Below are positions 23,105 through 51,924 of a DNA stretch of 64,000 nt, one piece after another (the stretch's first letter is position 1; each line of letters opens with the position of its first letter). The DNA comes from a virus (lineage: Duplodnaviria > Heunggongvirae > Uroviricota > Caudoviricetes), in IMG/VR virus record IMGVR_UViG_3300012662_000013, positions 43,405-107,404 of that record. One strand, 5' to 3'. The notes below the pieces were generated by a model. That model was not told the DNA's origin and did not search any database. It saw only the letters and a program-made list of their open reading frames with translations. Position numbers and translations under genes: made by a program.

Positions 23105-26100
23105 CTTCAGCTTCTCCTTGGGAACGGTTATTTCTTAATACTAAATCACCATTAGATTGAATTCCATCAATGTGATAAAGTTGATGTCCGGCTGTTGATG
23201 CATACTTCTTAACAATAAAATCATCTCCAGAACGGATGCCTTGGGCTACAATCATATTACCGCGATTAAACCAAGATTTTTCAATAATTTTTTTAGTTCC
23301 ATCAGGTTGTTTTTGAGAAATTTGTTTGTCAAACAATGTAAAATATTCTTTTCTGAACTTTACATTTACTACTCCTGTTGGAGTAAGAATAGTTACAATA
23401 CTCTTATTCTTATTTTTAGCGATACAAGTGCCGCACAACTTAGAAAGATAATAAATATTTATTGTTTTTCCAGCCTTAATAAAGCTTCTTTCTACGACTG
23501 GGTCTTCTGGAAGTTTATAGAAATCAACAAATCCATATTTACCTTGATTAACTTTTGCTAATTCATGTTCGTGGTAATAGAAACATAATACTTCCATTTC
23601 CCACGCAGAATAATTTACTTTAGGACAATATTTATCCCAATCCATTTTAAATACAATTTCATTTAATTTATTTAAAATTTCTTCTTTATTATCAGCAATT
23701 TGTTTACGATAAACATCCATCCATCCTTGGTAAACCTTATCATTCCAATCCTTAATATTTAAAAAGAAATTAGAATTATTGCTTTGGATTAAGTCATCTT
23801 TATCAATCTTTTGTAAAAATCCAATAGCTCTTTCATCTAGTTTATAATTAACTTTATCATATTTACAAATTTGTTTTAAATAACGAGTAAATTCATAAAT
23901 ATGTAAAGCCTGTTGTCTTTCATCTGTATCTGCTGGAAGAAGATTTAATTTCATTAAAGTAGCTAAATTTTGAAGATTAAGATTTTTCTTTTTATCACAA
24001 GTTTCCCAAATATACCAAGCCATACAAAGTTTTCTATCCATCATATGGTCAAAAGCCCCACCCTTGATAAGAGAAATCATAGCTTGTTTATTAGGATTAA
24101 CTTTATTTAAGAAATCTCTAGGAGAGATATAAGGTCTGTTATCAATAATTGTGCGAACTACATCATCACCAACATTTAGCATACCTTTTAAGCCGAACAG
24201 AATTTGATTATTTTCAACATCAGGGATAAAACTAAATTCTGATTTATTAATATCAGCAAGACTTACTTTAATACCAGCCTTACGAATATCACCAATGGCC
24301 TTAGCAATTTTTCCATAGTCAGTAGAATTAGTTTTTCTTACCTTAGATTTTTTATCAGGTAAATCTTCAAAAGTAACTCCGTTAGCTAAATCATCAGCTT
24401 CTGGATCATAAATATCTACTATTTCTTCTTCACTATTATCTTCTAAAGAACCACTATTGACAATTAAACAAGCACAATTCCAGTAGATAGGATTGTAATG
24501 AATAACAAAATAAATCATTTGAATAGCTACAAATGAATAAGGGAGTGAGTGATTACGTATACTCTGACTATTTCTTACGGACTTTGTAGTGAAAGTGGTA
24601 AATTTTCTCGTCCGCACACCATTTCCAACAACGTGTCAATAGTTGTTGTACTCCAAGTCTAACCTTGGATAGTCGATACAATAGATTAAAAATAAAGTTA
24701 TTTTTTCCTTAAAGGATAATTTAAATTATCTTTTTTATGAGAGCGGCCAGTATTTATATTGGTTACTGTAGATCTTGATTTATTATATTTTTTAGCAATT
24801 TCATTTTGAGTTAAATTAGTATTTAATAAATCATTAATAATTTTATTAACCCAAATTTCATTAGCTTTTTTGTTACATCCTTTTATATATAAAGGATAAG
24901 TTTCATTTTTATCAAAAAAATATCTACCACTATTAATACCAGAAATAAAACCAATACTTTTAATATTAAAATCTTTTGCTATTGTTTTATAAATTTCTCC
25001 AGACTTTATTCTATCTTTAATTTGTTTTATTTCTTCTTTAGAGAAATGGCTTCTATTTATTTCTTTTTTTAAAGGATAATCAAATAAAGGATTTTTAAAA
25101 TTTAACCCGCTATTAATATTTATAAGATATGAATACTTTAAACGTGGAGAATATTTTTTTAAAATTTCATTAAAATCTTTATTGGCTATTAATAAATTCT
25201 GTATATTAATAATTTCATTTCCAGTAAATAGTTTTGAAGATTGTAATTTTTCTTTATAAGTTTTTTCCTTCGGAGAAAATCCTTGTCCTCCTTGAGAAAC
25301 ATTATATCCATTTAAAGAAATTAAACTTTGATATTGTTCTATATAATATTTTTCTTTATCATCTATATAATTTTGGTCTTTACTATCATCAATTTCTTCT
25401 AATATAATAAAATCAAAATTATTTAATCCATATTTTCTAATAGCATTATGGAATGGTATATTATAATCATTTGATTTAGGATTAAAAGAACAACTTTTAT
25501 GTCCATTTTTTCTTTTTTGGATATTATTTGTTTGACCAATATAAATCTTCCCATTTATTTTATTTTCGTATTTATATATATATTTCATTTTTGCACCTCC
25601 TTATAATCTATTTCTACTTTTAATCTATCACGAGATTTTACCCTCGTTAGCAATTAATTTTATAATACTACCAATATTATAATGTAAATTAATTACCCCT
25701 ATGACGAATAGGTTAAGTGTGTAAGCCCCAATCTCTCAAGGCTAAAAGCATATCCTAACTGCGGTGCTACTGCTGTTTCCCAAAAATATTCTGCATCACT
25801 TTTATTATTAAAACGACTAAATACCTGTTCCTTTAATTGAGGAATCTTAGCCATTTGTTTTTTAGCAACAACTTTACGTGCTGAGTTAGCTTCACCTAAT
25901 GTAAAATGAGCTATATCCATAAGGATTTCCATCATTTGTTCTTGTAAAGGGCAACAACCATAATATTTATCACAGTGTTTATGAAATTTATTAATAAGTT
26001 CTTGAGGCAAATGATGTTGTTTCATTTCTTGATCAAAGGCTTGGATACCTTGGTGTTGAATTCGATAAAATCTATCTTGTTGTGATTCTTTACCTTTTTC

Positions 26101-33216: not shown

Positions 33217-35332
33217 TTATATAATAATTCTTTCTTTATATAATTTAAGAAATAAATCTGGCCCTTCATCAGTTGGACTATCCTTATAATTAGTAAGCAT
33301 ATTCTTATCAAAAATAAAAGATATGTTAAAATAATTTCCATACTTAGCCTTTATTTTTAATAAGTTATTTTTTAAATGATAAAATTCTTCATCACCTATT
33401 TTTTGGAATTGTCTATCAAAAGCAATAATAATATCTTTCGCACCGACTTGCTCTAATAATTTCATTTGCTGAGCCGATACGCTGCTGCCGCAACAAGCTA
33501 CCGTTATATCATTTTCAAAACCAAAATAACTTTGATATTGTAAGGTTGACTTTTCCATATAATCCATTATTTCTAATGGTACTGACTATATCTTCCAACT
33601 ACTAATTATAGTTGCCACTGTTTCGAGATATGTACCAATAATATCTCTACTCCCTTTAACAGGATAGTCGATACAGGTTATCTATTTTTCCACATCTATT
33701 TTGCTCCTACTGAATGATTATTTCTTAGAGGATAATTATATCCATCAAGCCTATAAGATTGAGTTTTTCCATTTATTATATCTGAAATAGTGGAAGAAGA
33801 ACAATTGAACATTTTTGCTAATTCTTTTAAATTTTTATCATTTTTTAAAATTTCTTCATGAATTTTTTTACATTCTTCAGGAGAAAATTTTAATCCTTTA
33901 GTGCCTTTAGCTTTATTAGAACGAATAGGATATTTAATTCCAGACTAAGGTCTTCGTGCTCCAATATTTATATTGTATATGTGAGTTAGTGAAAATCCAG
34001 TTTTTTCACTTATTTCTTTAAAAGAATATTTTTCATTCTTTAAATACTCAATAACTTCTAATATTTTTTTATCTTCATACATTGGTTTAACAGGATTTTT
34101 TCCACCAGTTGATTGATTATAACCATTAAAATATGTATCATAATATTTTATCCAATATTTTTCTCTATTGTCTAATTCTTCAAGTGGAACATTTTCTTCT
34201 AAAACTATTAATTGATACTCTTCTTCTCCATATTTTCTTATCCCTCGACTTAAAGGATAATCATACTCTGCTTTATTCATATTAAATGGGTCATATTGAA
34301 TATGCTATTTATGTCTATTTTTTAAGTTATTAGTTTGACCTACATAAACAATTTTACCATTACTTTTTTTCTTATAAGCATAAATTACATTCATAAAATC
34401 AACTCCTTTTCTCACTATTATATGAAAAATGAAGTTAGATGTTTAAATAGATTTTCCCACGGAACCACCTTGAATTTAAAAAAATTTTTAGGCTCCTCCG
34501 TTAGCTTGTTAAAAATAACAAACCCCATTGGTAAATGGTAAAGTGGACTAGGGCGAAACTTTCTTTTACCCTCAAATATTATTGCTTTTCCTATCCTATT
34601 TATATTTGCTTTACTATTATTTAAATTATATAAATTCATACCAAGAGGATGAGAATAAAGAATCTTATTAATTTTTAATGGTCTATATTTGCCATACAAT
34701 AGAGCTTCCTCTTTTCCTAACACTCTTCCTCTTAGTCCTATAAAATTTCCATCTATGTCAAAATGAGGAATTGTAATAGCATCGCCGCCAGGGTAATAAC
34801 CAATTATTGCTTGGTCTATCGCCTCTTGGCTTATTCCTTCTTTTAGCCACGGAGTTAATTTTACACAATAATTAAATCTACTTAAAATTTTACTATCATA
34901 AGTTTTTAATTCAACTTTAGAATTTAAATTTTCTTCTATGTTATTCTTATCATAATTAGCTAAAAATTTCCAATCTTCTAAGCCTAAATCTTCAGCATCG
35001 TCTTCCACTGAACCGGCAATACCAAAATAATTAGCTATCCAACGAACTGCATCATTTAGGTCATACTCTTTATTAGATTGGATATGAGCTACTTTAATTA
35101 CTAATTCAAATATATCAAATATATCATCACAGCCGGTGTAGCATTTAAATAATTGACTATTTGAATAGTAATAAAGTTTCTTACTTCCTGCTCCTGGTTC
35201 ATTATGACAGATAGTTTCAGAAAGGATACCGAATTCACTATATTCAGGATTACCGCCCCAAATATTTAGTAATTCAAAAATATTGTCTAAAGTTAAATTA
35301 TTTTTTATCTCAGCTTTATCATAGTTAATCAT
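33217..35332 (-). CDS. DnaG/T7-type DNA primase (CHC2 zinc finger plus TOPRIM) split by a group I intron
   Basis: Exon 1 is in ORF 34418..35332 (zinc finger CHNEPGAGSKKLYYYSNSQLFKCYTGC; ends ..KAIIFEGK). Exon 2 is ORF 33217..33567 (..ITVACCGSSVSAQQMKLLEQVGAKDIIIAFDRQF), aligning to the TOPRIM EG..D...G...FD.D.AG. Confidence 0.65.
33578..34562 (-). mobile_element. Group I intron in the primase TOPRIM region carrying a GIY-YIG homing endonuclease gene
   Basis: 5' core gctaacggaggagcc...ccgtgggaaaatc; 3' core aacctgtatcgactatcc directly after the endonuclease stop. Confidence 0.55.
33678..34394 (-). CDS. GIY-YIG homing endonuclease (~238 aa), 3 in-frame TAG
   Basis: MNVIYAYKKKSNGKIVYVGQTNNLKNRHK[TAG]H..YWIKYYDTYFNGYN, plus YPIRSNKAKG/NYPLRNNH DNA-binding repeats. 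RBS aaaggag. Confidence 0.65.
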
Positions 35333-35549: not shown

Positions 35550-38192
35550 TTAAAAAGCGCTATCTTCAGCAATTCTAATTTTTACATTTTCCATATCTAC
35601 TAATTCATAACTCCAATCAGTGCAAAAGATTGGAATAATACGACAGCAACCTAAATCAGCCTTACACCATAGATAAATTCCTTTATATTTACCTCGACGA
35701 TTTTTATATACTGATAATTTTATTGTTGGACGTTCAAAAGTATTTGTTTCAAGTATTTTCTCTAACGATTGATAATCATTATCACGAGCTTGAAGAAGTA
35801 GCATACCTACGTCAATTTTATCTGCAATGGCTTTTGAACCACGCAGAACATTTTGGTCTGGCGTTTCACTATATTGATAATCAGCATTTAACTAAGTAGC
35901 AGACATAATAAAAATACCATATTGATTACAAATATCTTTTAATCTAGTAGAAAGCATAAAAAGGATATTATCTTCTCTTAATTTTACGCCGCCGCTTCGT
36001 TTACTAATTTCTTCAAGAATTTTCATACTTGTATGAATATAATCGTGAAATATGTATTTAACCCCGTGGTCTCGAATATTTTTCTTAATAACATTTTCTA
36101 CATCCCGTAAAGAAAAATCTGGCATTTCTACAACAAATAAATCTGCTTTACAAAGATATTGTGCTGCTTCCCTTACTCGCGACAATTCATCCCCAACATA
36201 TTTACCATTCAAAATATGGTCTTCATTTACGTTAGATAGGAAAGCCAACATCATAGTTTGGATTTCATCTTTAGTCTGTTCAGTAGAAATAAATAAAACA
36301 GGTTCTCCGCCCCCACCGGACTTAATCCATCCAATTCCTTCTTGGTAATATTTTTCACAAGAAAGATAACAAGCATCAGCAATCATACTACGAGACTTCA
36401 GTTTTGTTATCCTATGGGCTTTTTATCCCATAGTTCTTATGGTTTCCCATAAGCTCAGCATATCTTTTCATCTTCACCTTTAAGTGTTAAGAGTAGGGGC
36501 CTCGTGGATGGATTATATCTTTTCACCATCTATGCGTTGTGGCTGGTTATAGTTCCTATAACCTTCACCTCTGATTACCTTGCTTAATAAATTAAGTTTA
36601 GGCTTCCAGATTTTTTCCCCTATAATTATCCTTAAAATTTCTTTTAAGGACGGCAATTTTTTAAAACAATATATTTTTCATATTTTCTATCTAAATATAT
36701 AGAAGCATTTAAATATAACTAATCTAAATAATCAAATACATAATTTCCACTCCACTCAATAGCATAAGCATTAGAAGGATGCTAAATTTTACATTGGCGC
36801 CATTGAGTTCTTTGTAGTAATTCTTCAATAAATTCTTTAGTGCTTAATAATGATAGTCTTGGCTTATTATAAATCCCTTTATGATTTTTTCCAATCATAA
36901 TACTACCATCACCATCAATATACCCTCTTATAAAATCAAATAAAAATTTATCTGAGACTTGTTCTTTAGTAGGAAATATTAATGTCAATGATTTTTTAGG
37001 AGTACAACCTAAGTTAATTAAACTTTGTCTTAGATGTTTATTACTTACCTAAATTCTACATCTAATATCATCCTAAAAAATATGTTTGTCTTTAGAAAAT
37101 CCTAAGTTATCTCGAAATTTTTCTAAATGCTTAATATCAGAAGATTTTAAACTTAATTCTACAGTATTATTATTACTGCTAATAGCTCCATCAGCATATA
37201 AAAATCCTAGCCAATAAGCTTTATCTGGATTATCGATTACGTCAAAATAATTTTCATTGAATTTAGTTATATTTTGTTTATTAATAATTTCAATACCTTC
37301 GGCTTTAAAATTATTACTTAATGTTCCTCTATCCAAATGTAATTCTTTACTAATCTAAGCAAGACTTTTACCTTCTTCAAGATACATTCTTTTTGCTTCT
37401 TTATATTTTTCTTTATATATATTAGATTGTCCCATATCATTTAAGGACCTCCTTTTTAATATATATAAATTTTTAATTATATGAATTCAACAGAATTGTC
37501 CGTAAATTACCTACACCAGTTGCCGCAGACCGCAAATAAAATTTATTCAATCTTGCTCCACGAGTAACTGTATTAATCAATGGACCAAATAAAGGAGCAC
37601 CAACTTCAGGATGTTCCAAAAGGTCATCAATTAATTCATCAATATTATTGCCAGCTTGGTATGCATCATTTTCCATTTCTGCTACATATTGATATTTAAT
37701 TTCTTCAATTTTATCATCAATACGTTGAGCAATTTTTTCTAATGAAGCATTATCTAACCATTCTTCTTGGAGTTGACGTTTTTTAGTATCTAAAATATTA
37801 TCAGGGTCATAAATATCGCTTACATCAAAACCATACCTATCATACGCTCGAAGTAATGACATCTTTTTTAGACGTCCATAATAATAATCAAAAGTAGTAT
37901 TATCACTATGAAGGCTAGCTTCTTTAATCCATTTGTCACCTTTTTGTGCAACATAGATAGCTTGATATTTTGGTCGAGTGCTTAAAAAATCTCCAATTGC
38001 ATCTAATGTAATGCTTTCGGCGCCAAGTTCATGTAGTTTATATATTGAACCATATACTATTTTATGAAAATCATTATCAAAATCATCTTCAGTAATAACA
38101 TATTTATCAGTATAATCCAATAGCTTAGGATTATTATATACGCAACCGATTGTCTAGATAATGGCTGTTGTATCAATATATTTTGATGCCAT
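35550..38192 (-). CDS. dnaB: Replicative DnaB-family helicase split by a group I intron after the Walker A glycine run
   Basis: N-terminal domain plus ..FYLRSAATGVG (ORF 37473..38120, real start ATG 38192 with RBS gataaggagg). Exon 2 is ORF 35892..36386 (..VLFISTEQTKDEIQ..), then TAG, then ORF 35550..35804 (SAT[Q]LNA..). Confidence 0.7.
36497..36540 (-). repeat. 43-nt near-identical block (caacgcatagatggtgaaaagatataatccatccacgaggc) shared between the dnaB intron and the late-gene intron at 14418-14460 (inverted)
   Basis: Direct comparison of the two strands; adjacent gatgaaaagatatgctga and ataggataaca blocks are also shared. Confidence 0.65.
36644..37440 (-). CDS. LAGLIDADG homing endonuclease (two motifs: AYWLGFLYADGAIS, RGYIDGDGSI), 5 in-frame TAG; N-terminal mini-ORF in the -1 frame
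   Basis: ORFs 37073..37336 and 36782..36988 are same-frame pieces. The body frame has ATG 37387 (weak RBS). An upstream ORF (ATG 37440, strong RBS aaaggagg) ends at TAA 37318-37320 in the +1 register. Confidence 0.5.
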
Positions 38193-41331: not shown

Positions 41332-41979
41332 TTAATTAATCAATAACTCTTGTGCGTAAGGCAAGGTTTCAATCCAAGAGCAGAAGGCTTTCCATTCGGG
41401 AAGCCTGTGATTTTTTCGCTGCTTATAAATATTCCTTAAACAACGATAATTAGTTGTCATACGAGCTGTTAAAGTAAATCCAGCAGGATTAGAATAAAGA
41501 ATTTCAAGATACATTCTCTTAATCCAATCTTCTTGCTGCTTAATTAATTCAGCACTGGCATTTTCTTTAACCATATTTTTTTTAAGCTCAACTTGAGTAT
41601 TATAAGCATCAACTTTTTCTTTCATAATCTTGACGATTCTATCATCAACATATTCATTATAAGCTTCATCTAAGTTAAACTTAGTAATTCTATGCATTGT
41701 AGATTGAGAACTTACAAACTCTAAAAATCTATAACGTTCTGCTTCAACCCACATTTTATTAGAACAAGTTAAATCAAAATTAACTCGAATACCTGTTAAG
41801 AATTGTCCATGCGCCTAATTATCTTTTACGCAAGCATTAATAAGAGTATTACAACGCTTAAAATCATTTTCATCTAAATCTCTATCCTACTGATTTTCAA
41901 TATCTACTGACATTGGATAGCCCGCGGCAATAATTGATTTGCCTAAATCATAAATACATACATTACTTACAATATCCAT
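41332..41979 (-). CDS. thyX: ThyX-like flavin-dependent thymidylate synthase (216 aa), 2 in-frame TAG
   Basis: R-Y-R-x7-S (RYRFLEFVSSQS) at the position of the ThyX RHRx7S motif. C-terminus ..YKQRKNHRLPEWKAF.. RBS ggaggatg. Confidence 0.45.
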
Positions 41980-42260
41980 TAATTTTCATCCTCCGATAAA
42001 GAATAACCAATTACATTTCCAAGACATTTAACAAGCAATTCAATTTCATCAATTAAAAACTTTTGACTATAGCCGCGTCCTTTATAGCAGTTAACATAAT
42101 CAGCATAAGACATAAAACTTAAATCCTTAAACCCATAATATAGAGCCTTTTCCTACATCATTGCAGGATTGGAGCATACAATAGTTGCTCCTGTATCTTT
42201 AGCAATCAGGAATAATCTTCCTGTTTTACCAGTGCCACGTTTATCAATAATTCTATACAT
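41979..42260 (-). CDS. Small P-loop protein (MYRIIDKRGTGKTGRL), one TAG
   Basis: RBS ggagaaa, ATG 42260; the TAA overlaps the thyX ATG. Confidence 0.35.
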
Positions 42261-42271
42261 TTTATTTCTCC

Positions 42272-44523
42272 TTATTTAATACTATAACCAAATTCTTTTG
42301 CTTGATAGAACTCTTGCCAATAATCTTCTCGGCTATCCAATAGGGATTTATCACAATCTTCAAGAATTTCAAAAGTAAATTGTTCCGGCCCTAATTCATA
42401 CATTGCCGGATAAAGTTTATTGCGGGTTGGAGCTTCTGCTCCTACTCCACGCTTTATATGTTGTTTCCAGCGGTCAGCGATATTGCAAATTATTTTATAA
42501 TTCTGACTATCTTTTACTGTTAAAATTTTAACAGGAAACCATTTCGGCATTTAAAGGACTTCATTTCTTAAAATCCTACTACGTATCAATAGTAGCCCTA
42601 CTTCCCCGCCCAAAAGGCCTAGGGAATAGTCGATACAGGTTCTTTGATTAGCGTGCTGGATAATCATAATCTTTTATAGAATATGACTTTCCTTTATTAA
42701 TTTTACTAACTGTATTTCGATGTATATTATATTTAATACCAATATCAGACATTGATTTAGAACTATTTCTTAAATCTGATAAAATATTTTTTACTTCTTC
42801 AATAGTAAAATTTTGATTATTTCTAATATTTTTATTTCTAATAGGATAACTATAATTGCCATTTTCTTTGAATAAAGTCCCTTGATTAATTGCTCTAATT
42901 ACTTTTAAAGGAACTTTATACTTTTGAATTAAATCTGTTTCAATCTATAAATCCCAACGATATAATAAATCTTCTTTCAAATTTAATAATTCCTACTCAT
43001 TAAGAAAATAATCTAAAACATTATCTTTTTTCGCAAAATCATGATTATTTTGCCTTAATGGGTATGAAAGATTGGAATTAAAATACGTATTTCCTTGAGA
43101 TATATTAAAAATAGTGTCTTGACTAACTTGATATAAATTAGCAATATCTTTATAAGATAATTTAGTATTATTTACTAATAAATCTATAATTTCATTTAAT
43201 TGCTATTCATCAAATTTAGAATTACAATTCTCTACTCCTCGTTTACCAGAAACATTCCCATTTTTTAATACATTATATCCTATAGATTTATCTGTAGCAT
43301 TATAAAAATCAATCCATTTAGTTTCTATGGCATCAAGCTATAAAATATCAAAAACCTATTCCAATACTTCAATTGTAGCTTGATGTTTTTTTAAAGCCTA
43401 ATCACAAATTTGAATATTTTTATTATTATGCTCATTGGCTCTAGACCAAATACTTAAAGCCTAACCGATATAGATTTTACCATTATCATAATTTATTTTA
43501 TAAATACCACAGACTTTTAAATTATTATTAATATTAGTAATCATTGTTGTTTCCACCGTCCTTCTATATATTATTAATTTTTATGGAGGGTGGATTAATC
43601 AAAGTTTCCCACGGGATTGATTAAACTTAATTTTCCCCGTTAGCTTGCCATTTTCTAAATTTTGGTAAATGGCAAACCCCATTGATTAATGGAAAAGTTT
43701 TTCATCGGCCAATGTTGACCGCTTGACCTATATAACATTTTTGACTTTCTATATTAGTAATCTTATAAATACCTGTGCGGATTTTCTGACCAACTACTCG
43801 GCCGATTAAATCACTATAAGGTTTTTCATAATATACTTTCCAAATTACTTTATTAATTGGTTCAGCACTTCTTAAATAAGGAACAATTGAACGAATTTTT
43901 TTAATTTCTTCAATATCAATTTCACTTAAATTAAGTTTATAAAACTATTCTTTTTGTTTTACTTCTTCGGCACGTTTATTAGCTTCAACAATAGCATCTT
44001 GTTTTGCCTTTGCATCAGCCAATTCTTGAGATACCTTATTTAATTCTTCTTGCTTTTGGATAATTAAATTAGCATATTCTTTTGTGCTTTCTTCAATAGC
44101 TTTTAAATATTCTTGTTGATAATTATCTTCTGCCTATTGGTATTTCTAAGCCATCTATTCAGCAGACTAAGCAAGTTTTTCAGATGCTAATTCGTTTGCT
44201 TTTTGGCAATACATTTCAGCGTTTAAACTTGCTTGCTAATAATTTTCATCAAGAGTTTTCTTTTTATCTTTTAAAAAATCTATTTCTTTAATTAATAAAT
44301 TATAATCATTATTTAGATTAAAGATTTTTTCATTTAACTCATTTTGTTTTTGAAGAAGCCTTTGACTTTCTTCAATTATTTTTGCGTTTTCTTCTCTAGT
44401 TTGATTATCTAACTCAATTGTGGCTTTTAATTTATTACGCAGACCTAAATATAAAAGACCAGCACCGAGAAGAAAACATATTACGCAATAAATTACAGTC
44501 ATATTTAAAAAGAAAAAGGGCAA
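42272..44523 (-). CDS. Membrane-anchored coiled-coil protein whose C-terminal GIY-YIG nuclease domain is split by a group I intron
   Basis: Exon 1: ATG 44523 (ORF 44236..44523), transmembrane segment plus coiled coil read through 7 TAG to ..KIRTGIYKITNIESQKCYIGQAVNIGR then TGA 43702. Exon 2 lies within ORF 42272..42550: ..WKQHIKRGVGAEAPTRNKLYPAMYELGPEQFTFEILED..REDYWQEFYQAKEFGYS, the second half of a GIY-YIG domain. Confidence 0.5.
42480..43705 (-). mobile_element. Group I intron, homologous to the topoisomerase intron, inside a GIY-YIG nuclease gene and itself encoding a GIY-YIG homing endonuclease
   Basis: Shares tgaaaaacttttc, gctaacggggaa...cccgtgggaaac, aacctgtatcgactat...ctactattgatacgtag and gtaaaagatagtcag blocks with the intron at 49376-50428. 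Confidence 0.55.
42648..43544 (-). CDS. GIY-YIG homing endonuclease (~298 aa), 8 in-frame TAG
   Basis: MITNINNNLKVCGIYKINYDNGKIYIG[TAG]ALSIWSRANEH.., then repeated YPLRQNNH / YSYPIRNKN / YDYPAR motifs. Confidence 0.6.
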
Positions 44524-44525
44524 AT

Positions 44526-44560
44526 TACTTTGCCCTTTTAAATTTTATATTAAATTACTC
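44526..44560 (-). terminator. Hairpin terminator (aaagggcaa/ttgcccttt) with T-runs on both sides
   Basis: Lies between the GC-rich small gene and the start of the coiled-coil gene. Confidence 0.55.
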
Positions 44561-44575
44561 AGCGTCTTCTGCGTC

Positions 44576-44821
44576 AAGGTCAAGAGCAAGACCAGCATCA
44601 GTAAGAGAAAGGAATTTTACTGCACGATGGGTACCATCATCAAGTTCAACCTCAGCGGGGGTGCGAACACCAAAGCCCTTGCGCTGGATAGCAGAAGTGA
44701 AGATGCCATCAACAGTACGCTTCTCAAGACCGAGAGCCTCAGCAACATCAGCAGCGGTGACCTATTCACCATTAACACTCTTTAGATAACTAAAAACTTT
44801 CTTAGTATTTTCCTTCATCAT
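44576..44821 (-). CDS. Small helix-turn-helix / winged-helix DNA-binding protein in a ~50% GC island; one TAG
   Basis: MMKENTKKVFSYLKSVNGE[TAG]VTAADVAEALGLEKRTVDGIF.. The segment is ~20% higher in GC than its surroundings. RBS aaggag. Confidence 0.45.
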
Positions 44822-49031: not shown

Positions 49032-51924
49032 TAATGCCTTGTCCCATTAAGTCTTCAAATAACTTATCAGTAGCTTCTACGTCTTCTACAGTGATTTGTT
49101 TGATAATACGGTTTTCAGGATCAGTTAAAGTTTCTTCTGTTTCATCAACATCCATTTCGCCAAGGCCCTTCATACGATTGACAATATATTTTTTACCTAC
49201 ATTTTCTTTGCGGAAAACTTCAAGAGCTTCATCATTTTTAAGATATTTATATTTTTTACCAATCGTAATTTTATAAAGCGGTGGCACACCAGCGTATACA
49301 TATCCATCTTTAATCAATTCAGGGCAAAAATTCCAAATGAAAGTATAAAACAGATTTTTAATATGTGCGCCGTCGCGTGTTATTCTTATGTTTCCATAAG
49401 CACTGACTATCTTTTACTTTCTAAATATTAGAAAGGAAACCATTTCGACATTTAACTCACTTCGTTTCCTAAAATGAGACTACGTATCAATAGTAGCTCT
49501 ACTCCCCTGCCCATAAGGCTTAGGGGATAGTCGATACAGGTTCAAATATTAATCCATCGCTTTTCTTTCTTTTTATATAAAGGTAAAGAGGAATAAGAAC
49601 GGCCCCATAATATTGCCTAAAAACCTTGAAAACTAATTCTATCTTTATAATCTTTATATATTTCTTTAGCATTTTCATTTACATATCTTTTTCTAATTTG
49701 AATTATCTCTTTATCAGAAAATTTAGCGTTAGAGCCATTTTCATTTTTACTGTTATTATAAATATAATATTTTTTATTTTCTATAGTAAAAACTTCAGGC
49801 ATTACATTAGACCAACATTTTCCAGACCAAACATTCTAAAAATGATTGAAAGAAATTTTATCTTTAAATAATTCATAAATATCTTTCTAACGATAGTGTT
49901 TAGCATAAGCTTGTCTAATAATTTTTACGTCATTTTCTGTTAATTTAGCTCTACCATTATTTTCTCCAATTGAGGATTGATTTCCTCCTGGATTACAATT
50001 ATAACCTTTATTAAAAGTATTATAATATTTAATCCAATATTCTTCTTTATCATTTAATTGACTAATAGAGCATAATTCAATTATTTCATAAGTAAATGAA
50101 TTTTTTCCATATTTTTGAATAGCGATATCAACAGGAATTCTGCTTTTCTCTCCAACAGTCTAATGTTCTTTAAATCTACGTTCTATATCATTAGACTAAC
50201 CGATATAAGATTTTCCTGTTTTTTTATTAGTTATTTTATAAATACCAATCATTTTACCATCCTCCTATGAAGATGGATTAATATTTGTTTCCCACGGGAT
50301 TCTCCTGCGTTTCCGTTTAGAGTTCCCCGTTAGCCATCTTCTATTATTATATGAGAACCATCAATGTATAATTAATAGAAGTTGACCCGCCTGATTAGAC
50401 GAAAAGTTTTTCATACGCCGTTTTGCTGACGTCTGCATCGCTCATTATGATAATTTTGCCATATCGTAAATCTTCTGGATGATATGTAATTTTCATATTC
50501 TTAGGGTCAATGGTTAAACCGAATGCTTGAATCATAGTCATAATTTCTGCATTCTTTTGGATTTTATCAAGACTTGCTTTTTGAGTATTAAGAATTTTGC
50601 CACGGACAGGTAAAACTGCTTGGAACTCATTATTACGAGCATCTTTTAAATTACCGCTTGCACTATCGCCCTCAGTGATATAAATTTCACATTGACTACG
50701 TTTTTTGCTATAGCAGTCAGCTAATTTACTATCAAACTTTAAAGCTTTCTGCTTCTTTTCATTTTGATTACGAACAGTTTCTCTAGCTTTTCTAGCTGCC
50801 TCTCTAGCACGACGTGCATTAAGAGCTTTATCTGCAATAATCTTAATTGATTTTTCATTAAGCTCAAGCCATTGTCTAATACTTTCAGTAATCCAAGGAG
50901 TAAACGGAGACATATCCAATTTCACGATTCGGCTCTTGGTCTGAGCATCATAACTTACTCCAGGAGTAGTGAGATTGAATACAAGATACAAACCTTCTTG
51001 GCAATCATCACCTGAAAGGTTTTCTTCTTTATCTTTTAACCATTTCTTTTCACGGAAAAATTTATTTAATTCACGAGTAAGAATAGTTTTAATTAAAGTA
51101 ATGTGCGGACCGCTATCAGTAAGTCCAGTATTTACATAGGGAACAATAATAGATGAATAACTGTCAGTATAAGTTAATTCAAAATCTAATTTATTCTTTC
51201 CTTCATCTTTTTTAAGAATTAGCCTATTATCAATGATTTCAGTGTTTTTAACTGCATCATTTACTAAATCAGTTAACCCATTAGCTGAATAATATTCTTC
51301 GCCATTAAGGAGAATTTTTAGACCGGGGCATAAGCATACAAGAACTTTAAATAACTGTTTAATAGTATTTAAATTAACTTCTGTATGAGTGAAAAACTCT
51401 TCACTAGGTTGCCATTGGACCAAAGTTCCTGAGGGATTATCTTTGTTATTCCAATCTCCGCATTCGCGTTTAACAAACTCACCTTCTTTGAACCAAATAT
51501 GTTCATATTTACCATCTCGATGTGTAATTACTTCAAGCCGGTGAGAAAGATACGTGGCTAATTTGCTACCAATACCATTAAGACCAAGGGCAGTTCCTTC
51601 ATATACGCCATCATCATCATATTTACCTGACGTATTTAATACTCCAAAAGATGCCTCAAGGATAGTCTTACCATCTTCTCGCATTGCATTTGGAATAAAT
51701 CCTTGTCCATTATCCTCAACGATAATTACATTATCTTTATTAATATCAACTTTGATAGTATCGCCGTGGCCTGCGGCATACTCATCGACCGCATTTGATA
51801 CAATCTCAATAAGTAATTGAGTTGAATATTCAGTAGAACCACAATAGACACCTGGTCTAAGGCGAGTAAATTGTAAAGGGCTTAGCGACTGTATACTATC
51901 TTCTGTATATACTTTATTAGCCAT
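48973..51924 (-). CDS. Type II topoisomerase ATPase/TOPRIM subunit (GyrB-like; T4 gp39-like) split by a group I intron
   Basis: Exon 1 is ORF 50395..51924, ending ..YGKIIIMSDADV at 50429. Exon 2 starts at 49375 (DGAHIKNLFYTFIW..PPLYK..KGLGEM..). The splice restores GyrB ..[24 protein letters not shown].. Confidence 0.75.
49481..49545 (-). repeat. Group I intron 3'-core repeat (..ctactattgatacgtag..aacctgtatcgactatcc..), copy in the topoisomerase intron
   Basis: ~85% identical to 42581-42645; a shorter match at 33640-33677 and partial matches at 24640-24680 and 58060-58080. Confidence 0.6.
49542..50252 (-). CDS. GIY-YIG homing endonuclease (~236 aa), 5 in-frame TAG
   Basis: MIGIYKITNKKTGKSYIG[TAG]SNDIERRFKEH..EEYWIKYYNTFNKGYN. 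ORF 49617..49802 is the C-terminal piece. RBS ggaggatgg. Confidence 0.65.

What the first reader, a model, noticed from the sequence alone, without database searches (positions are those of the whole stretch)
42272..44523. A GIY-YIG nuclease domain is itself split by a group I intron that encodes another GIY-YIG endonuclease
The gene starting at 44523 (transmembrane helix plus ~250 aa of coiled-coil) ends with the first half of a GIY-YIG domain (..TGIYKITNIESQKCYIGQAVNIGR, then TGA at 43702). The second half (..WKQHIKRGVGAEAP..LYPAMYELGPEQFTFEILED..REDYWQEFY..GYS) lies 1.2 kb downstream in the same orientation, after an intron. The intron's core blocks are nearly identical to the topoisomerase intron and it contains a 298-aa GIY-YIG homing endonuclease.

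A membrane-tethered coiled-coil GIY-YIG nuclease is an unusual architecture. A homing-endonuclease intron inserted into another GIY-YIG gene is also unusual. The first could be a host-DNA-degrading or superinfection-exclusion function.
Basis: partly seen in the sequence, partly recalled or inferred. Interest (0 to 1): 0.7.

Follow-up and report, generated by a model that had tools for sequence, protein, structure and literature searches.

The report
Mobile intron splits a phage nuclease gene
A gut phage that reads TAG as an amino acid has a membrane-anchored DNA-cutting enzyme gene interrupted, inside its catalytic motif, by a mobile self-splicing intron that carries its own related DNA-cutting enzyme; the intron is an ordinary kind, but the interrupted gene belongs to a large, undescribed phage protein family.

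Summary
On the minus strand, read with TAG as a sense codon, a gene starts at ATG 44502, not TTG 44523. A 1,232-nt group I intron (43717-42486) interrupts it.

Joining exon 1 (44502-43718) to exon 2 (42485-42272) gives a 332-aa protein. It is colinear with, and 93-98% identical to, the 120 best-scoring uninterrupted 332-aa proteins from related ~185-195 kb phage contigs. An intron-less DNA allele aligns to exon 1 plus exon 2 without a gap.

The RNA has P1, P10, P3-P9, P7.1/P7.2 and a terminal G, with strong covariation in about 50 relatives. Rfam gives no hit, because the endonuclease ORF sits in the P6a loop. That ORF (43544-42648, 298 aa, 7 TAG) is an I-TevI-type GIY-YIG homing endonuclease.

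The same intron sits at the same site in 49-56%-identical homologues. It is absent from most close relatives, so it is mobile.

The host protein has an N-terminal membrane anchor, a ~165-residue helix and an I-TevI-like GIY-YIG domain. Its family is large and unnamed, and its function is unknown.

The intron is a new member of a known kind. The architecture is the more interesting part.

The parts
43718..44502 (-). Exon 1 of the host gene (codons 1-261 plus 2 nt of codon 262; 6 in-frame TAG). It encodes the membrane anchor, the long helix, the small helical domain and the GIY...YIGQAV part of the nuclease domain.
   Evidence: Translation with TAG read through; gapless match to the intron-less allele L001; homologues start MTVIY.
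44440..44496 (-). Coding region for the N-terminal hydrophobic helix (residues 3-21), followed by RNKLK. It is a predicted signal-anchor that leaves the rest of the protein in the cytoplasm.
   Evidence: All 62 aligned homologues have an N-terminal 19-residue stretch with a Kyte-Doolittle mean of at least 1.6 (median 2.48). The next 8 residues carry a mean net charge of +2.3.
43942..44439 (-). Coding region for the long helix (residues 22-187), a presumed coiled-coil stalk.
   Evidence: The AlphaFold2 model shows one continuous helix over residues 3-187, with pLDDT 85-97 over most of it. Only coiled-coil-type weak family hits occur here.
42486..43717 (-). Group I intron, 1,232 nt. The 5' splice site follows U43718 and the terminal G is at 42486.
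   Evidence: The boundaries are fixed by the intron-less allele and by analogy with the topoisomerase intron, whose junction restores DADV|DGAHI.
43706..43721 (-). P1 and the internal guide sequence. Exon CGGU (43721-43718) pairs with GCCG (43709-43706). The adjacent AUUG (43713-43710) pairs with exon 2 CAAU (42485-42482) to form P10.
   Evidence: G at position -3 is present in all 5 intron-containing alleles, and A or T in all 9 intron-less ones.
43545..43705 (-). 5' half of the ribozyme.
- P3 5' strand: 43700-43697
- Two hairpins: 43694-43677 and 43675-43645
- J3/4 UAA
- P4: 43640-43635 with 43616-43611
- P5: 43631-43620
- P6 5' strand: 43610-43608
- P6a 5' strand: 43604-43596
- Hairpin over the endonuclease ribosome-binding site: 43594-43585 with 43561-43552
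   Evidence: P4 covaries perfectly (36 G:C, 16 A:U, 0 mismatched).
42648..43544 (-). Intron-encoded GIY-YIG homing endonuclease ORF in the P6a loop (298 aa, 7 in-frame TAG, TAA stop). The stop codon is part of the P6a 3' strand.
   Evidence: Pfam GIY-YIG at 28.1 bits; phrog_7168 matched over residues 13-288; weak HTH hits at 111-148 and 247-287. The exact protein occurs on 34 contigs. It is 75% identical to the endonuclease in L003.
42486..42650 (-). 3' half of the ribozyme.
- P6a 3' strand: 42650-42642
- P6 3' strand: 42639-42637
- P7: 42631-42626 with 42510-42505
- P7.1: 42625-42603
- P7.2: 42596-42578
- Extra hairpin: 42577-42555
- P3 3' strand: 42539-42536
- P8: 42534-42517
- P9: 42502-42488
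- Terminal G: 42486
   Evidence: Covariance model R1 scores 140.7 bits here, but this sequence was in the model's seed. Pair counts are 91.9% paired against 74.6% in shuffles, 0 of 500 shuffles as high.
42272..42485 (-). Exon 2 (last nt of codon 262 to codon 332, plus the TAA stop). It encodes NIADRWKQH...REDYWQEFYQAKEFGYSIK, including catalytic Arg267, His271 and Glu315.
44514..44539 (-). Terminator-like hairpin plus T-run between the upstream 88-aa ORF and the nuclease start codon.
49376..50428 (-). Paralogous intron in the type II topoisomerase gene (1,053 nt, with its own GIY-YIG endonuclease at 50252-49542). It was used to calibrate the splice sites.

Best explanation
The gene at 44502-42272 (minus strand) of this TAG-recoded phage, about 195 kb long, encodes a 332-aa protein. 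The protein has an N-terminal membrane anchor, a helix of about 165 residues, a small helical domain and a C-terminal I-TevI-type GIY-YIG nuclease domain.

In this strain the gene is interrupted inside codon Val262. The interruption lies between the YIG motif and the catalytic Arg-x3-His. The interrupting element is a mobile group I intron of the T4 td / Twort type (subgroup IA, with P7.1/P7.2).

Inferred steps:
- After transcription the intron folds. Exon CGGU pairs with the guide GCCG (P1), and exon 2 CAAU pairs with AUUG (P10).
- It excises by the usual two transesterifications at U43718 and G42486. This restores the reading frame ...YIGQAV|NIADRWKQH....
- The intron's P6a loop carries a 298-aa GIY-YIG homing endonuclease. 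This enzyme presumably cuts intron-less alleles during co-infection, and repair copies the intron in.

Shown here: the intron boundaries, the ribozyme architecture with covariation, the intact endonuclease ORF, the presence/absence polymorphism among near-identical phages, and the same intron at the same site in diverged phages.

Inferred only: splicing itself, endonuclease activity and target, and what the host nuclease does.

My best guess for the host protein is a cytoplasm-facing, inner-membrane-tethered DNA endonuclease made late in infection. It would cut DNA near the membrane, either incoming competitor DNA or host DNA. Confidence in that guess is low (see the novel case). The confidence figure below refers to the intron-plus-endonuclease explanation.
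For: - Boundaries. The intron-less allele L001 aligns to exon 1 plus exon 2 with no gap. The 120 best-scoring database proteins are all uninterrupted, 332 aa and 93-98% identical. The Pfam GIY-YIG match spans the junction.
- Ribozyme. Every helix was located and checked. The 3' core has 91.9% of cells paired against 74.6% in shuffles, with 23 pairs changed on both sides and 0 of 500 shuffles as high.
- Covariation in 52 relatives. P4 is 36 G:C and 16 A:U with no mismatched combinations. The mean P6a helix is 9.19 against 5.37 with shuffled partners, P3 is 4.77 against 3.34, and the first extra hairpin is 5.13 against 3.73.
- Folding. The minimum-energy fold of the ORF-deleted intron reproduces P4, P5, P6, P6a, P7.1, P7.2, P8 and P9, with z = -3.41.
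- Calibration. The paralogous topoisomerase intron's junction restores the Toprim motif IIIMSDADV|DGAHIKNL.
- Independent relatives. Model R1 finds two further cores it was not trained on, in the primase and polymerase genes (E about 1e-11). A related core lies in the DNA polymerase region of Enterococcus phage EF1.
- Mobility. The exact intron-containing allele is on 35 contigs, while the near-identical intron-less alleles L001 and L161 exist.
- Same site in diverged phages. The same intron and site occur in L003/L004, L005/L006, L007 (5' part only) and L068, whose proteins are 49-56% identical where measured. In L003 and L005 the intron is 78-80% identical in nucleotides, against 68-69% for the exons.
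- Host nuclease. Y246, Y257, R267, H271 and E315 are invariant in 62 homologues. The best solved-structure match is the I-TevI catalytic domain (E 2e-6, TM 0.80-0.83). TIGR01453 scores above its cut-off.
Against: - No Rfam group I hit appeared at any threshold. I attribute this to the 900-nt ORF in P6a and to divergence, but I could not test that by submitting an ORF-deleted sequence.
- Two hairpins lie between the P3 5' strand and J3/4-P4, and there is no P2 in the usual place. This layout is not the textbook one and my helix names there are provisional.
- P3 in this copy is only 4 bp.
- No transcript data exist.
- The endonuclease's C-terminal DNA-binding modules have only sub-threshold HTH hits. 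It has no sequence match to any solved structure.
- A dense block of synonymous differences downstream of the junction, which I first read as a co-conversion tract, is shared by an intron-less allele (L161). It is therefore not evidence of homing.
Confidence: 0.9

Rival explanations
1. The coiled-coil protein ends at the TGA at 43702 and has no nuclease domain. The downstream GIY-YIG piece would then be a decayed separate gene, and the insert a free-standing endonuclease cassette that does not splice.
For: Under the standard reading the frame does stop at 43702. Gene callers report the 266-aa and 92-aa pieces as separate proteins.
Against: All full-length homologues carry the domain continuously, with invariant catalytic residues. 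Both exon frames are intact in the three independent intron-containing lineages where both exons could be read. Their spliced products are 332, 316 and 329 aa. The flanking non-coding RNA has a complete, covarying ribozyme core.
Confidence: 0.03
2. The intron is present but no longer splices efficiently, so this strain has effectively lost the nuclease. The gene would be a pseudogene by insertion, tolerated because the gene is dispensable.
For: Splicing was not observed. P3 is only 4 bp. Rfam does not recognise the element.
Against: All core helices, the G.U pair at the 5' splice site, P10 and the terminal G are intact. The exon nucleotides at positions -3 and +1 are exactly those that make P1 and P10 pair, and they differ from those of the intron-less alleles. 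The same allele recurs on 35 contigs with both exons intact.
Confidence: 0.06
3. The 'host' gene is itself a selfish free-standing homing endonuclease rather than a functional phage gene. The locus would then be one mobile element nested in another.
For: Its nuclease domain is of the homing-endonuclease type. TIGR01453 scores above its cut-off. I-TevI is the best structural match. It is 35% identical to the intron's own endonuclease domain.
Against: It has no recognisable DNA-binding module. Instead it has a conserved membrane anchor and a long helix. It keeps the same position, after the ligase gene and two small ORFs of 63-65 and 88-89 aa, in phages whose copies are 49-98% identical. Every one of the 120 best-scoring close relatives carries it at full length. 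That pattern fits vertical inheritance, not sporadic mobility.
Confidence: 0.05

Closest known systems
Phage T4 td intron with I-TevI (group IA2 intron carrying a GIY-YIG homing endonuclease)
   Same: - Group I intron in a phage protein-coding gene.
- The endonuclease ORF is looped out of the P6 region.
- The endonuclease has an N-terminal GIY-YIG catalytic domain followed by C-terminal DNA-binding modules.
- The P4 and P7 core sequences are similar (UAACGGGGAA...AAUCCCGUG; GACUAU/AUAGUC). This comparison is from memory of the td sequence, not tested against it here.
- The ribosome-binding site of the endonuclease is sequestered in a hairpin.
   Different: - The host gene is a nuclease, not a nucleotide-metabolism enzyme.
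- The 3' end is much shorter, with a single 6-bp P9 and then the terminal G.
- There is no P2 after P1, and two hairpins lie between P3 and P4.
- The ORF carries 7 TAG sense codons.
- The endonuclease has no detectable sequence match to the solved I-TevI chains.
Staphylococcus phage Twort orf142 introns and Enterococcus phage EF1 polymerase-region intron
   Same: The P7-P7.1-P7.2-CGAAAU-P3'-P8-P7' layout is the same. The 3' core is 87% identical over about 105 nt to an element in the polymerase region of EF1. Several introns occur per phage genome: at least four cores in this window.
   Different: The insertion site and the host gene differ. The Twort comparison rests on my recollection of its sequence.
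I-TevI catalytic domain (PDB 1MK0, 1LN0), compared with the host protein's C-terminal domain
   Same: Foldseek gives E 2e-6 to 6e-6, TM 0.80-0.83 and 30-32% identity. Tyr, Tyr, Arg, His and Glu are conserved.
   Different: The domain sits at the C-terminus, behind a membrane anchor and a helix of about 165 residues, with no DNA-binding domain. The conserved Asn of I-TevI (GYN) is Ser in this clade (GYS), although it is Asn in more distant family members.
Uzume (UzuA) single-gene anti-phage defence protein
   Same: It is a single protein with a C-terminal GIY-YIG domain. 45 of 62 family members hit the UzuA model PDLC03973 (best E 1.6e-10).
   Different: The match covers only the nuclease domain (model positions 184-275 of 278). 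The generic homing-endonuclease models score better. Nothing links the N-terminal parts.

Membership tests
Group I intron | The 5' splice site follows a U that forms a G.U wobble with the internal guide sequence (P1). | tested here: met
   Exon CGGU (43721-43718) pairs with GCCG (43709-43706), and U43718 pairs with G43709. The boundary is confirmed by the intron-less allele.
Group I intron | The intron ends in G, and P10 forms between the guide sequence and the start of exon 2. | tested here: met
   The terminal G is at 42486. AUUG (43713-43710) pairs with CAAU (42485-42482). L003 has CAAU/AUUG, and L005 has UAAU/AUUG with a U.G pair.
Group I intron | A conserved catalytic core of P3-P8, including the P3/P7 pseudoknot and a P7 guanosine-binding helix. 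| tested here: met
   P7 GACUAU/AUAGUC is invariant. P3 is supported by partner-specific complementarity in 52 relatives (4.77 against 3.34, above every one of 500 shuffles). P8, P7.1 and P7.2 covary.
Group I intron | A P4-P6 domain with A-rich J3/4 and J4/5. | tested here: met
   The sequence reads UAA-CGGGG-AA...AAUCCCGU. P4 shows 36 G:C and 16 A:U with no mismatched combinations. The mean P6a helix is 9.19 against 5.37 with shuffled partners.
Group I intron | Recognition by the curated Rfam model. | tested here: not met
   No hit at the gathering threshold or at E<=10, either over the whole region or over the 3' core alone. The 900-nt ORF in P6a probably prevents a match. An ORF-deleted sequence could not be submitted to that tool.
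Group I intron | Self-splicing with a guanosine cofactor. | not testable with these tools
   This needs an in-vitro transcript or RNA from infected cells.
Subgroup IA (td/Twort-like) | Extra helices P7.1 and P7.2 between P7 and the P3 3' strand. | tested here: met
   P7.1 (42625-42603) and P7.2 (42596-42578) have changes on both sides in most pairs. An additional hairpin lies at 42577-42555.
Subgroup IA (td/Twort-like) | P2 between P1 and P3. | tested here: inconclusive
   No hairpin lies between P1 and the P3 5' strand. Two hairpins lie between P3 and J3/4 instead. Their names are provisional.
GIY-YIG homing endonuclease (I-TevI type), intron ORF | An N-terminal GIY...YIG catalytic domain with Arg, His/Glu and Asn. 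| tested here: met
   The motifs are GIYKI...IYIGQA, R34, H38, E73 and GYN91. Pfam gives 28.1 bits against a 22.6 cut-off, and phrog_7168 gives E 6.5e-16.
GIY-YIG homing endonuclease (I-TevI type), intron ORF | C-terminal sequence-specific DNA-binding modules. | tested here: inconclusive
   Only sub-threshold HTH hits were found, at residues 111-148 and 247-287. The phrog_7168 match does extend to residue 288.
GIY-YIG homing endonuclease (I-TevI type), intron ORF | Sporadic presence or absence at one site in otherwise near-identical genomes. | tested here: met
   Intron-containing allele: the window and 35 contigs. Intron-less alleles: L161 (17 nt differences in 999) and L001. The same site is occupied in diverged lineages.
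GIY-YIG homing endonuclease (I-TevI type), intron ORF | Cleavage of the intron-less allele near the insertion site. | not testable with these tools
   This needs purified protein and intron-less target DNA.
GIY-YIG nuclease superfamily, host protein | The domain fold and catalytic residues. | tested here: met
   Pfam gives 35.6 bits and TIGR01453 gives 59.7 against a 56.05 cut-off. The structure matches I-TevI with TM 0.8. Y246, Y257, R267, H271 and E315 are invariant.
Uzume (UzuA) | Full-length similarity to UzuA and a defence-island context in a bacterial genome. | tested here: not met
   Only the nuclease domain matches. The gene lies in a phage replication module.
TAG-to-Gln recoded phage (code 15) | In-frame TAG in conserved genes, with termination only at TAA or TGA. 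| tested here: met
   There are 157 in-frame TAG in 16,619 codons of ORFs of at least 200 aa. All 39 of these ORFs end in TAA or TGA. TAG occupies the Gln position of the YIGQ motif in two endonucleases, where paralogues use CAA or CAG. The only GenBank phage carrying the family, Phass-1, is classified in the code 15 clade. No suppressor tRNA lies in the window, and the amino acid inserted was not shown directly.

The most novel reading that the evidence does not exclude
The interrupted gene may define a new functional class of phage protein. It would be a homing-endonuclease catalytic domain, domesticated and mounted on a coiled-coil stalk of about 25 nm that is anchored in the inner membrane.

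It would be made only once TAG suppression is active, that is, late in infection. It would destroy DNA in a shell under the membrane. The target could be superinfecting phage DNA as it enters, or host DNA.

The intron's preference for the catalytic-motif codons of this gene would then reflect strong conservation of an important phage function.
Probability: 0.3. Interest if true: 0.7.

Novelty: new member of a known kind. Interest (0 to 1): 0.45.

Why it matters
Endonuclease-carrying group I introns in phage genes have been known since T4 td, so the intron adds a new host gene and insertion site rather than a new principle. Three things make the locus worth keeping.

- **It rescues a mis-annotated gene.** Standard pipelines split the gene into a 266-aa piece, a 298-aa piece and a 92-aa piece, or into many more fragments under the standard code. 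The corrected model adds a full member to a family that is abundant in gut phage metagenomes. The family has 483 clusters at 50% identity and, in the libraries and papers searched here, no name and no description.

- **The architecture is unusual and makes a testable prediction.** An I-TevI-type catalytic domain sits on a membrane-anchored helix of about 165 residues. This predicts nuclease activity confined to the space near the membrane.

- **It is a clean natural system for studying intron mobility.** Intron-containing and intron-less alleles differ by 17 of 999 exon nucleotides. The differences private to the intron-containing allele lie exactly where P1 and P10 pair. The intron's endonuclease is itself delayed by TAG codons.

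Tried and rejected
- **Rfam searches found nothing.** I searched the whole window at the gathering threshold, then 42200-43800 and 42470-42670 at E<=10. None gave a group I hit.

- **Two alternative splice junctions were rejected.** These were ...NIGRS|DRW (5' site after CGAT, 3' site after ATCG) and ...AVNI|NYKIICNIADRW (3' site right after AGTCAG). Both conflict with the 332-aa uninterrupted homologues and the gapless DNA alignment.

- **Three candidate P3 pairings were rejected.** GGAAAC after P4' with GUUUCC is absent in EF1 and broken in relatives with GUCUCC. GGC before UAA with GCC fails because the GCC is missing in relatives that lack the extra hairpin. UUUUCC with GGGAAA shows no compensation at its variable position. 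Covariation instead placed P3 just upstream of UUUUCC.

- **A co-conversion tract was retracted.** Against L001 alone, 14 of 40 differences fall in the 105 nt after the junction. The intron-less allele L161 shares that haplotype, so I withdrew the inference. Only the three private changes at positions -3, +1 and +7 are intron-associated.

- **P0237/L008 is not a truncated, intron-containing homologue.** It comes from a phage that reads TGA as Trp.

- **No close relative among deposited phages.** A near-identity search of the GenBank phage collection returned only the EF1/EF5 intron-core match.

- **The afdb50 fold library was unavailable**.

- **The literature search found no description** of a membrane-anchored coiled-coil GIY-YIG phage protein, and nothing on the architecture of Uzume.

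- **Contigs binned into bacterial genomes are probably phage.** Loci from metagenome-assembled 'bacterial' genomes that carry the gene lie on contigs of about 120-180 kb. These are most likely mis-binned phage contigs, so they give no reliable host assignment.
Full report
**What is in the sequence**

Under the standard bacterial code, the minus strand between 44523 and 42272 breaks into short ORFs. Direct translation shows that every break in the upstream part is a TAG.

Reading TAG as a sense codon restores long genes across the whole window. There are 157 in-frame TAG in 16,619 codons of ORFs of at least 200 aa, and all 39 of those ORFs end in TAA or TGA. TAG also occupies the Gln position of the conserved YIGQ motif in two endonuclease ORFs, where paralogues use CAA or CAG. 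The window therefore comes from a TAG-recoded phage.

The exact proteins encoded here recur on contigs of up to 195,075 bp. The only deposited phage with a homologue of the gene, Phass-1, is classified in the 'code 15 clade'.

**The split gene**

With TAG read through, a frame runs from ATG 44502 to a TGA at 43702 and ends ...TGIYKITNIESQKCYIGQAVNIGR*. The rest of a GIY-YIG domain (NIADRWKQHIKRG...REDYWQEFYQAKEFGYSIK*) lies at 42485-42272 on the same strand. A 298-aa GIY-YIG ORF sits between them at 43544-42648.

I fixed the splice sites in three independent ways.

- *Calibration on the topoisomerase intron.* The non-coding flanks are homologous to those of the intron in the topoisomerase gene. 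That intron's junction can be calibrated on the universally conserved Toprim motif. Joining after GACGU and after ...AACACG gives IIIMSDADV|DGAHIKNL. The equivalent positions here are after GCGGU (43718) and after ...AAUUUG (42486).
- *Length of the joined product.* The joined product is 332 aa, exactly the length of the 120 best-scoring database proteins. These are 93-98% identical over their full length.
- *An intron-less DNA allele.* L001:4001-4999 aligns to exon 1 plus exon 2 without any gap.

The spliced protein matches Pfam GIY-YIG at 35.6 bits across the junction. Homologues start at the ATG.

**The intron is a group I ribozyme**

Rfam does not detect it, so I built the case from the sequence and from relatives.

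In this copy I located the following helices (coordinates):
- P1, CGGU with GCCG, with the U.G pair at the splice site
- P10, CAAU with AUUG
- P3, AAAC with GUUU
- P4, ACGGGG with UCCCGU, flanked by UAA and AA
- P5
- P6 plus P6a; the ORF is in the P6a loop, and its TAA stop is part of the P6a 3' strand
- P7, GACUAU with AUAGUC
- P7.1, P7.2 and a further hairpin
- P8, a 6-bp P9, and the terminal G

A scan of viral contigs for the 14-mer across J6/7-P7 returned about 100 distinct related cores.

- *The 3' core.* On a 21-sequence alignment of the 3' core, 91.9% of cells pair, against 74.6% in column shuffles and 38-46% when partners are slid. 23 of 33 pairs show changes on both sides.
- *The 5' half and long-range helices.* On 52 ORF-deleted relatives, P4 shows 36 G:C and 16 A:U with no mismatched combination. 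P6a, P3 and the first extra hairpin are each far more complementary with their own partner than with partners from other sequences (P3 also).
- *Folding.* The minimum-energy fold of the ORF-deleted intron independently reproduces all the non-pseudoknotted helices, with z = -3.41.
- *Other copies.* A covariance model of the 3' core finds four copies in the window. Two were not in its seed: the primase core (33583-33677) and the PolIII-alpha core (24565-24682), both at E about 1e-11.
- *A cultured-phage relative.* The 3' core is 87% identical to an element in the polymerase region of Enterococcus phage EF1.

From memory, the layout P7-P7.1-P7.2-CGAAAU-P3'-P8 and the P4 and P7 sequences resemble the T4 td and Twort orf142 introns (subgroup IA). 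I did not have those sequences to test.

One feature is non-canonical. There is no hairpin between P1 and P3, and two hairpins lie between the P3 5' strand and J3/4. My labels for them are provisional.

**Mobility**

The intron-encoded protein has the GIY, YIG, Arg, His, Glu and Asn residues and matches a homing-endonuclease family over residues 13-288.

The intron is polymorphic among near-identical phages.
- The intron-containing allele is on 35 contigs.
- The intron-less allele L161 differs from the spliced gene at only 17 of 999 positions.
- All of the 120 best-scoring close relatives are uninterrupted.

The same intron occupies the same codon in phages whose copy of the protein is only 49-56% identical (L003/L004 and L005/L006, with exon 2 present). 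L007 and L068 show the same exon 1-intron junction. In L003 and L005 the intron is 78-80% identical in nucleotides, against 68-69% for the exons. That fits horizontal spread.

I first read a block of synonymous differences downstream of the junction, seen against L001, as a co-conversion tract. L161 shares that haplotype, so I withdrew the inference.

What is specific to intron-containing alleles is a small cluster at positions -3, +1 and +7. The G at -3 completes P1, and the C at +1 completes P10. G at -3 is found in all five intron-containing alleles and in none of nine intron-less ones.

**The host protein**

AlphaFold2 with 62 homologues gives a confident model (mean pLDDT 89.3). It has one helix from residue 3 to 187, a small helical domain (194-237) and a GIY-YIG domain (244-327).

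- *Nuclease domain.* The best solved-structure matches are the I-TevI catalytic domain chains (E 2e-6 to 6e-6, TM 0.80-0.83, 30-32% identity). NCBIfam's 'group I intron endonuclease' model scores above its cut-off on the domain. The domain is 35% identical to that of the intron's own endonuclease. Y246, Y257, R267, H271 and E315 are invariant in the family, so an active nuclease is expected.
- *Membrane anchor.* All 62 homologues have a strongly hydrophobic N-terminal 19-mer followed by net positive charge. By the positive-inside rule this places the nuclease in the cytoplasm on a membrane-anchored stalk.
- *No other domain.* No other family is detected. Hits to the Uzume defence protein cover only the nuclease domain.
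- *Size and distribution of the family.* The family has 483 clusters at 50% identity with E<=1e-30. No source gives any member a name. It lies on phage-sized contigs.
- *Genomic context.* It keeps the same place, after the ligase gene and two small ORFs, across phages whose copies are 49-98% identical. That argues for a vertically inherited phage gene rather than a selfish element.
- *Codon usage.* It carries TAG at late-gene density (6 in 332 codons), while the neighbouring replication genes have almost none. Following the argument of Borges et al. (bioRxiv 10.1101/2021.08.26.457843), this suggests translation only after TAG suppression sets in.

**What it does**

The intron-plus-endonuclease mechanism is well supported, short of direct observation of splicing and cleavage.

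The function of the nuclease is open. I think the most likely reading is a late, membrane-tethered, cytoplasm-facing DNA endonuclease that acts on DNA near the membrane, either entering competitor DNA or host DNA. This is inference from architecture alone, and I give it about 0.3.

**Novelty**

An endonuclease-bearing group I intron in a phage gene is a known kind of element. The new points are the host gene and the site: the catalytic-motif codons of a homing-endonuclease-type nuclease domain. I found no description of the host family.

I rate the finding as a new member of a known kind, of moderate interest. The uncharacterised membrane-anchored nuclease family is the part most worth following up.

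Noticed in passing
window 50428-49376 (-); cores at 33583-33677 (-) and 24565-24682 (-): At least three more td/Twort-like group I intron cores lie in the window. They interrupt the topoisomerase, primase and PolIII-alpha genes, and each sits next to a GIY-YIG endonuclease ORF. The primase and polymerase cores were found by a model that was not trained on them (E about 1e-11).
   Followed up: partly
window 36644-37435 (-), between 37473-38192 and 35550-36386: The DnaB-like helicase gene also looks split by a 263-aa ORF that contains a helix-turn-helix. The intron-core model finds nothing there, so this could be a different intron type, an intein or a free-standing endonuclease.
   Followed up: no
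window-wide; host gene 44502-42272, endonuclease ORFs 43544-42648 and 50252-49542: TAG sense codons are frequent in structural genes, in the intron endonucleases (7 in 298, 5 in 236) and in the membrane-anchored nuclease (6 in 332). They are nearly absent from the topoisomerase, ligase, polymerase and primase exons. This matches the published idea that recoding delays endonuclease and late-gene translation.
   Followed up: partly
window 43594-43585 with 43561-43552 (-): A 10-bp hairpin covers the Shine-Dalgarno-like GGACGGUGGA just upstream of the endonuclease ATG. The topoisomerase intron and L003 keep the hairpin through compensating changes. It may act as a translational brake, like the one known for I-TevI.
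   Followed up: partly
window 44539-44514 (-) and 45178-45150 (-): A terminator-like hairpin with a T-run sits directly between the 88-aa ORF and the nuclease start codon. A perfect 12-of-12 sigma-70 consensus promoter overlaps the end of the ligase gene.
   Followed up: no
window 28307, 38733, 41287, 44885, 46299, 53279 (about 40 nt each): A repeated AT-rich motif (TTGATTTT...TGATATAATAT on the minus strand) lies upstream of several minus-strand genes. It looks like a phage-specific promoter family.
   Followed up: no
L008 74-871: A homologue of the nuclease from another phage uses TGA for the catalytic-motif Trp (..SR-TGA-KQH = SRWKQH). The family therefore spans phages with TAG, TGA and possibly standard codes.
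   Followed up: partly
window 44555-44821 (-) and 41979-42260 (-): Two small ORFs, an 88-aa one upstream and a 93-aa one downstream, flank the nuclease gene. The upstream partner (88-89 aa) is present in every related phage locus examined, and a downstream ORF of 75-93 aa is present wherever the locus extends that far. They may be partners or regulators of the nuclease.
   Followed up: no
window 1-64000: ARAGORN finds no tRNA gene in the window, so the TAG suppressor tRNA must lie elsewhere in the genome of about 195 kb.
   Followed up: no
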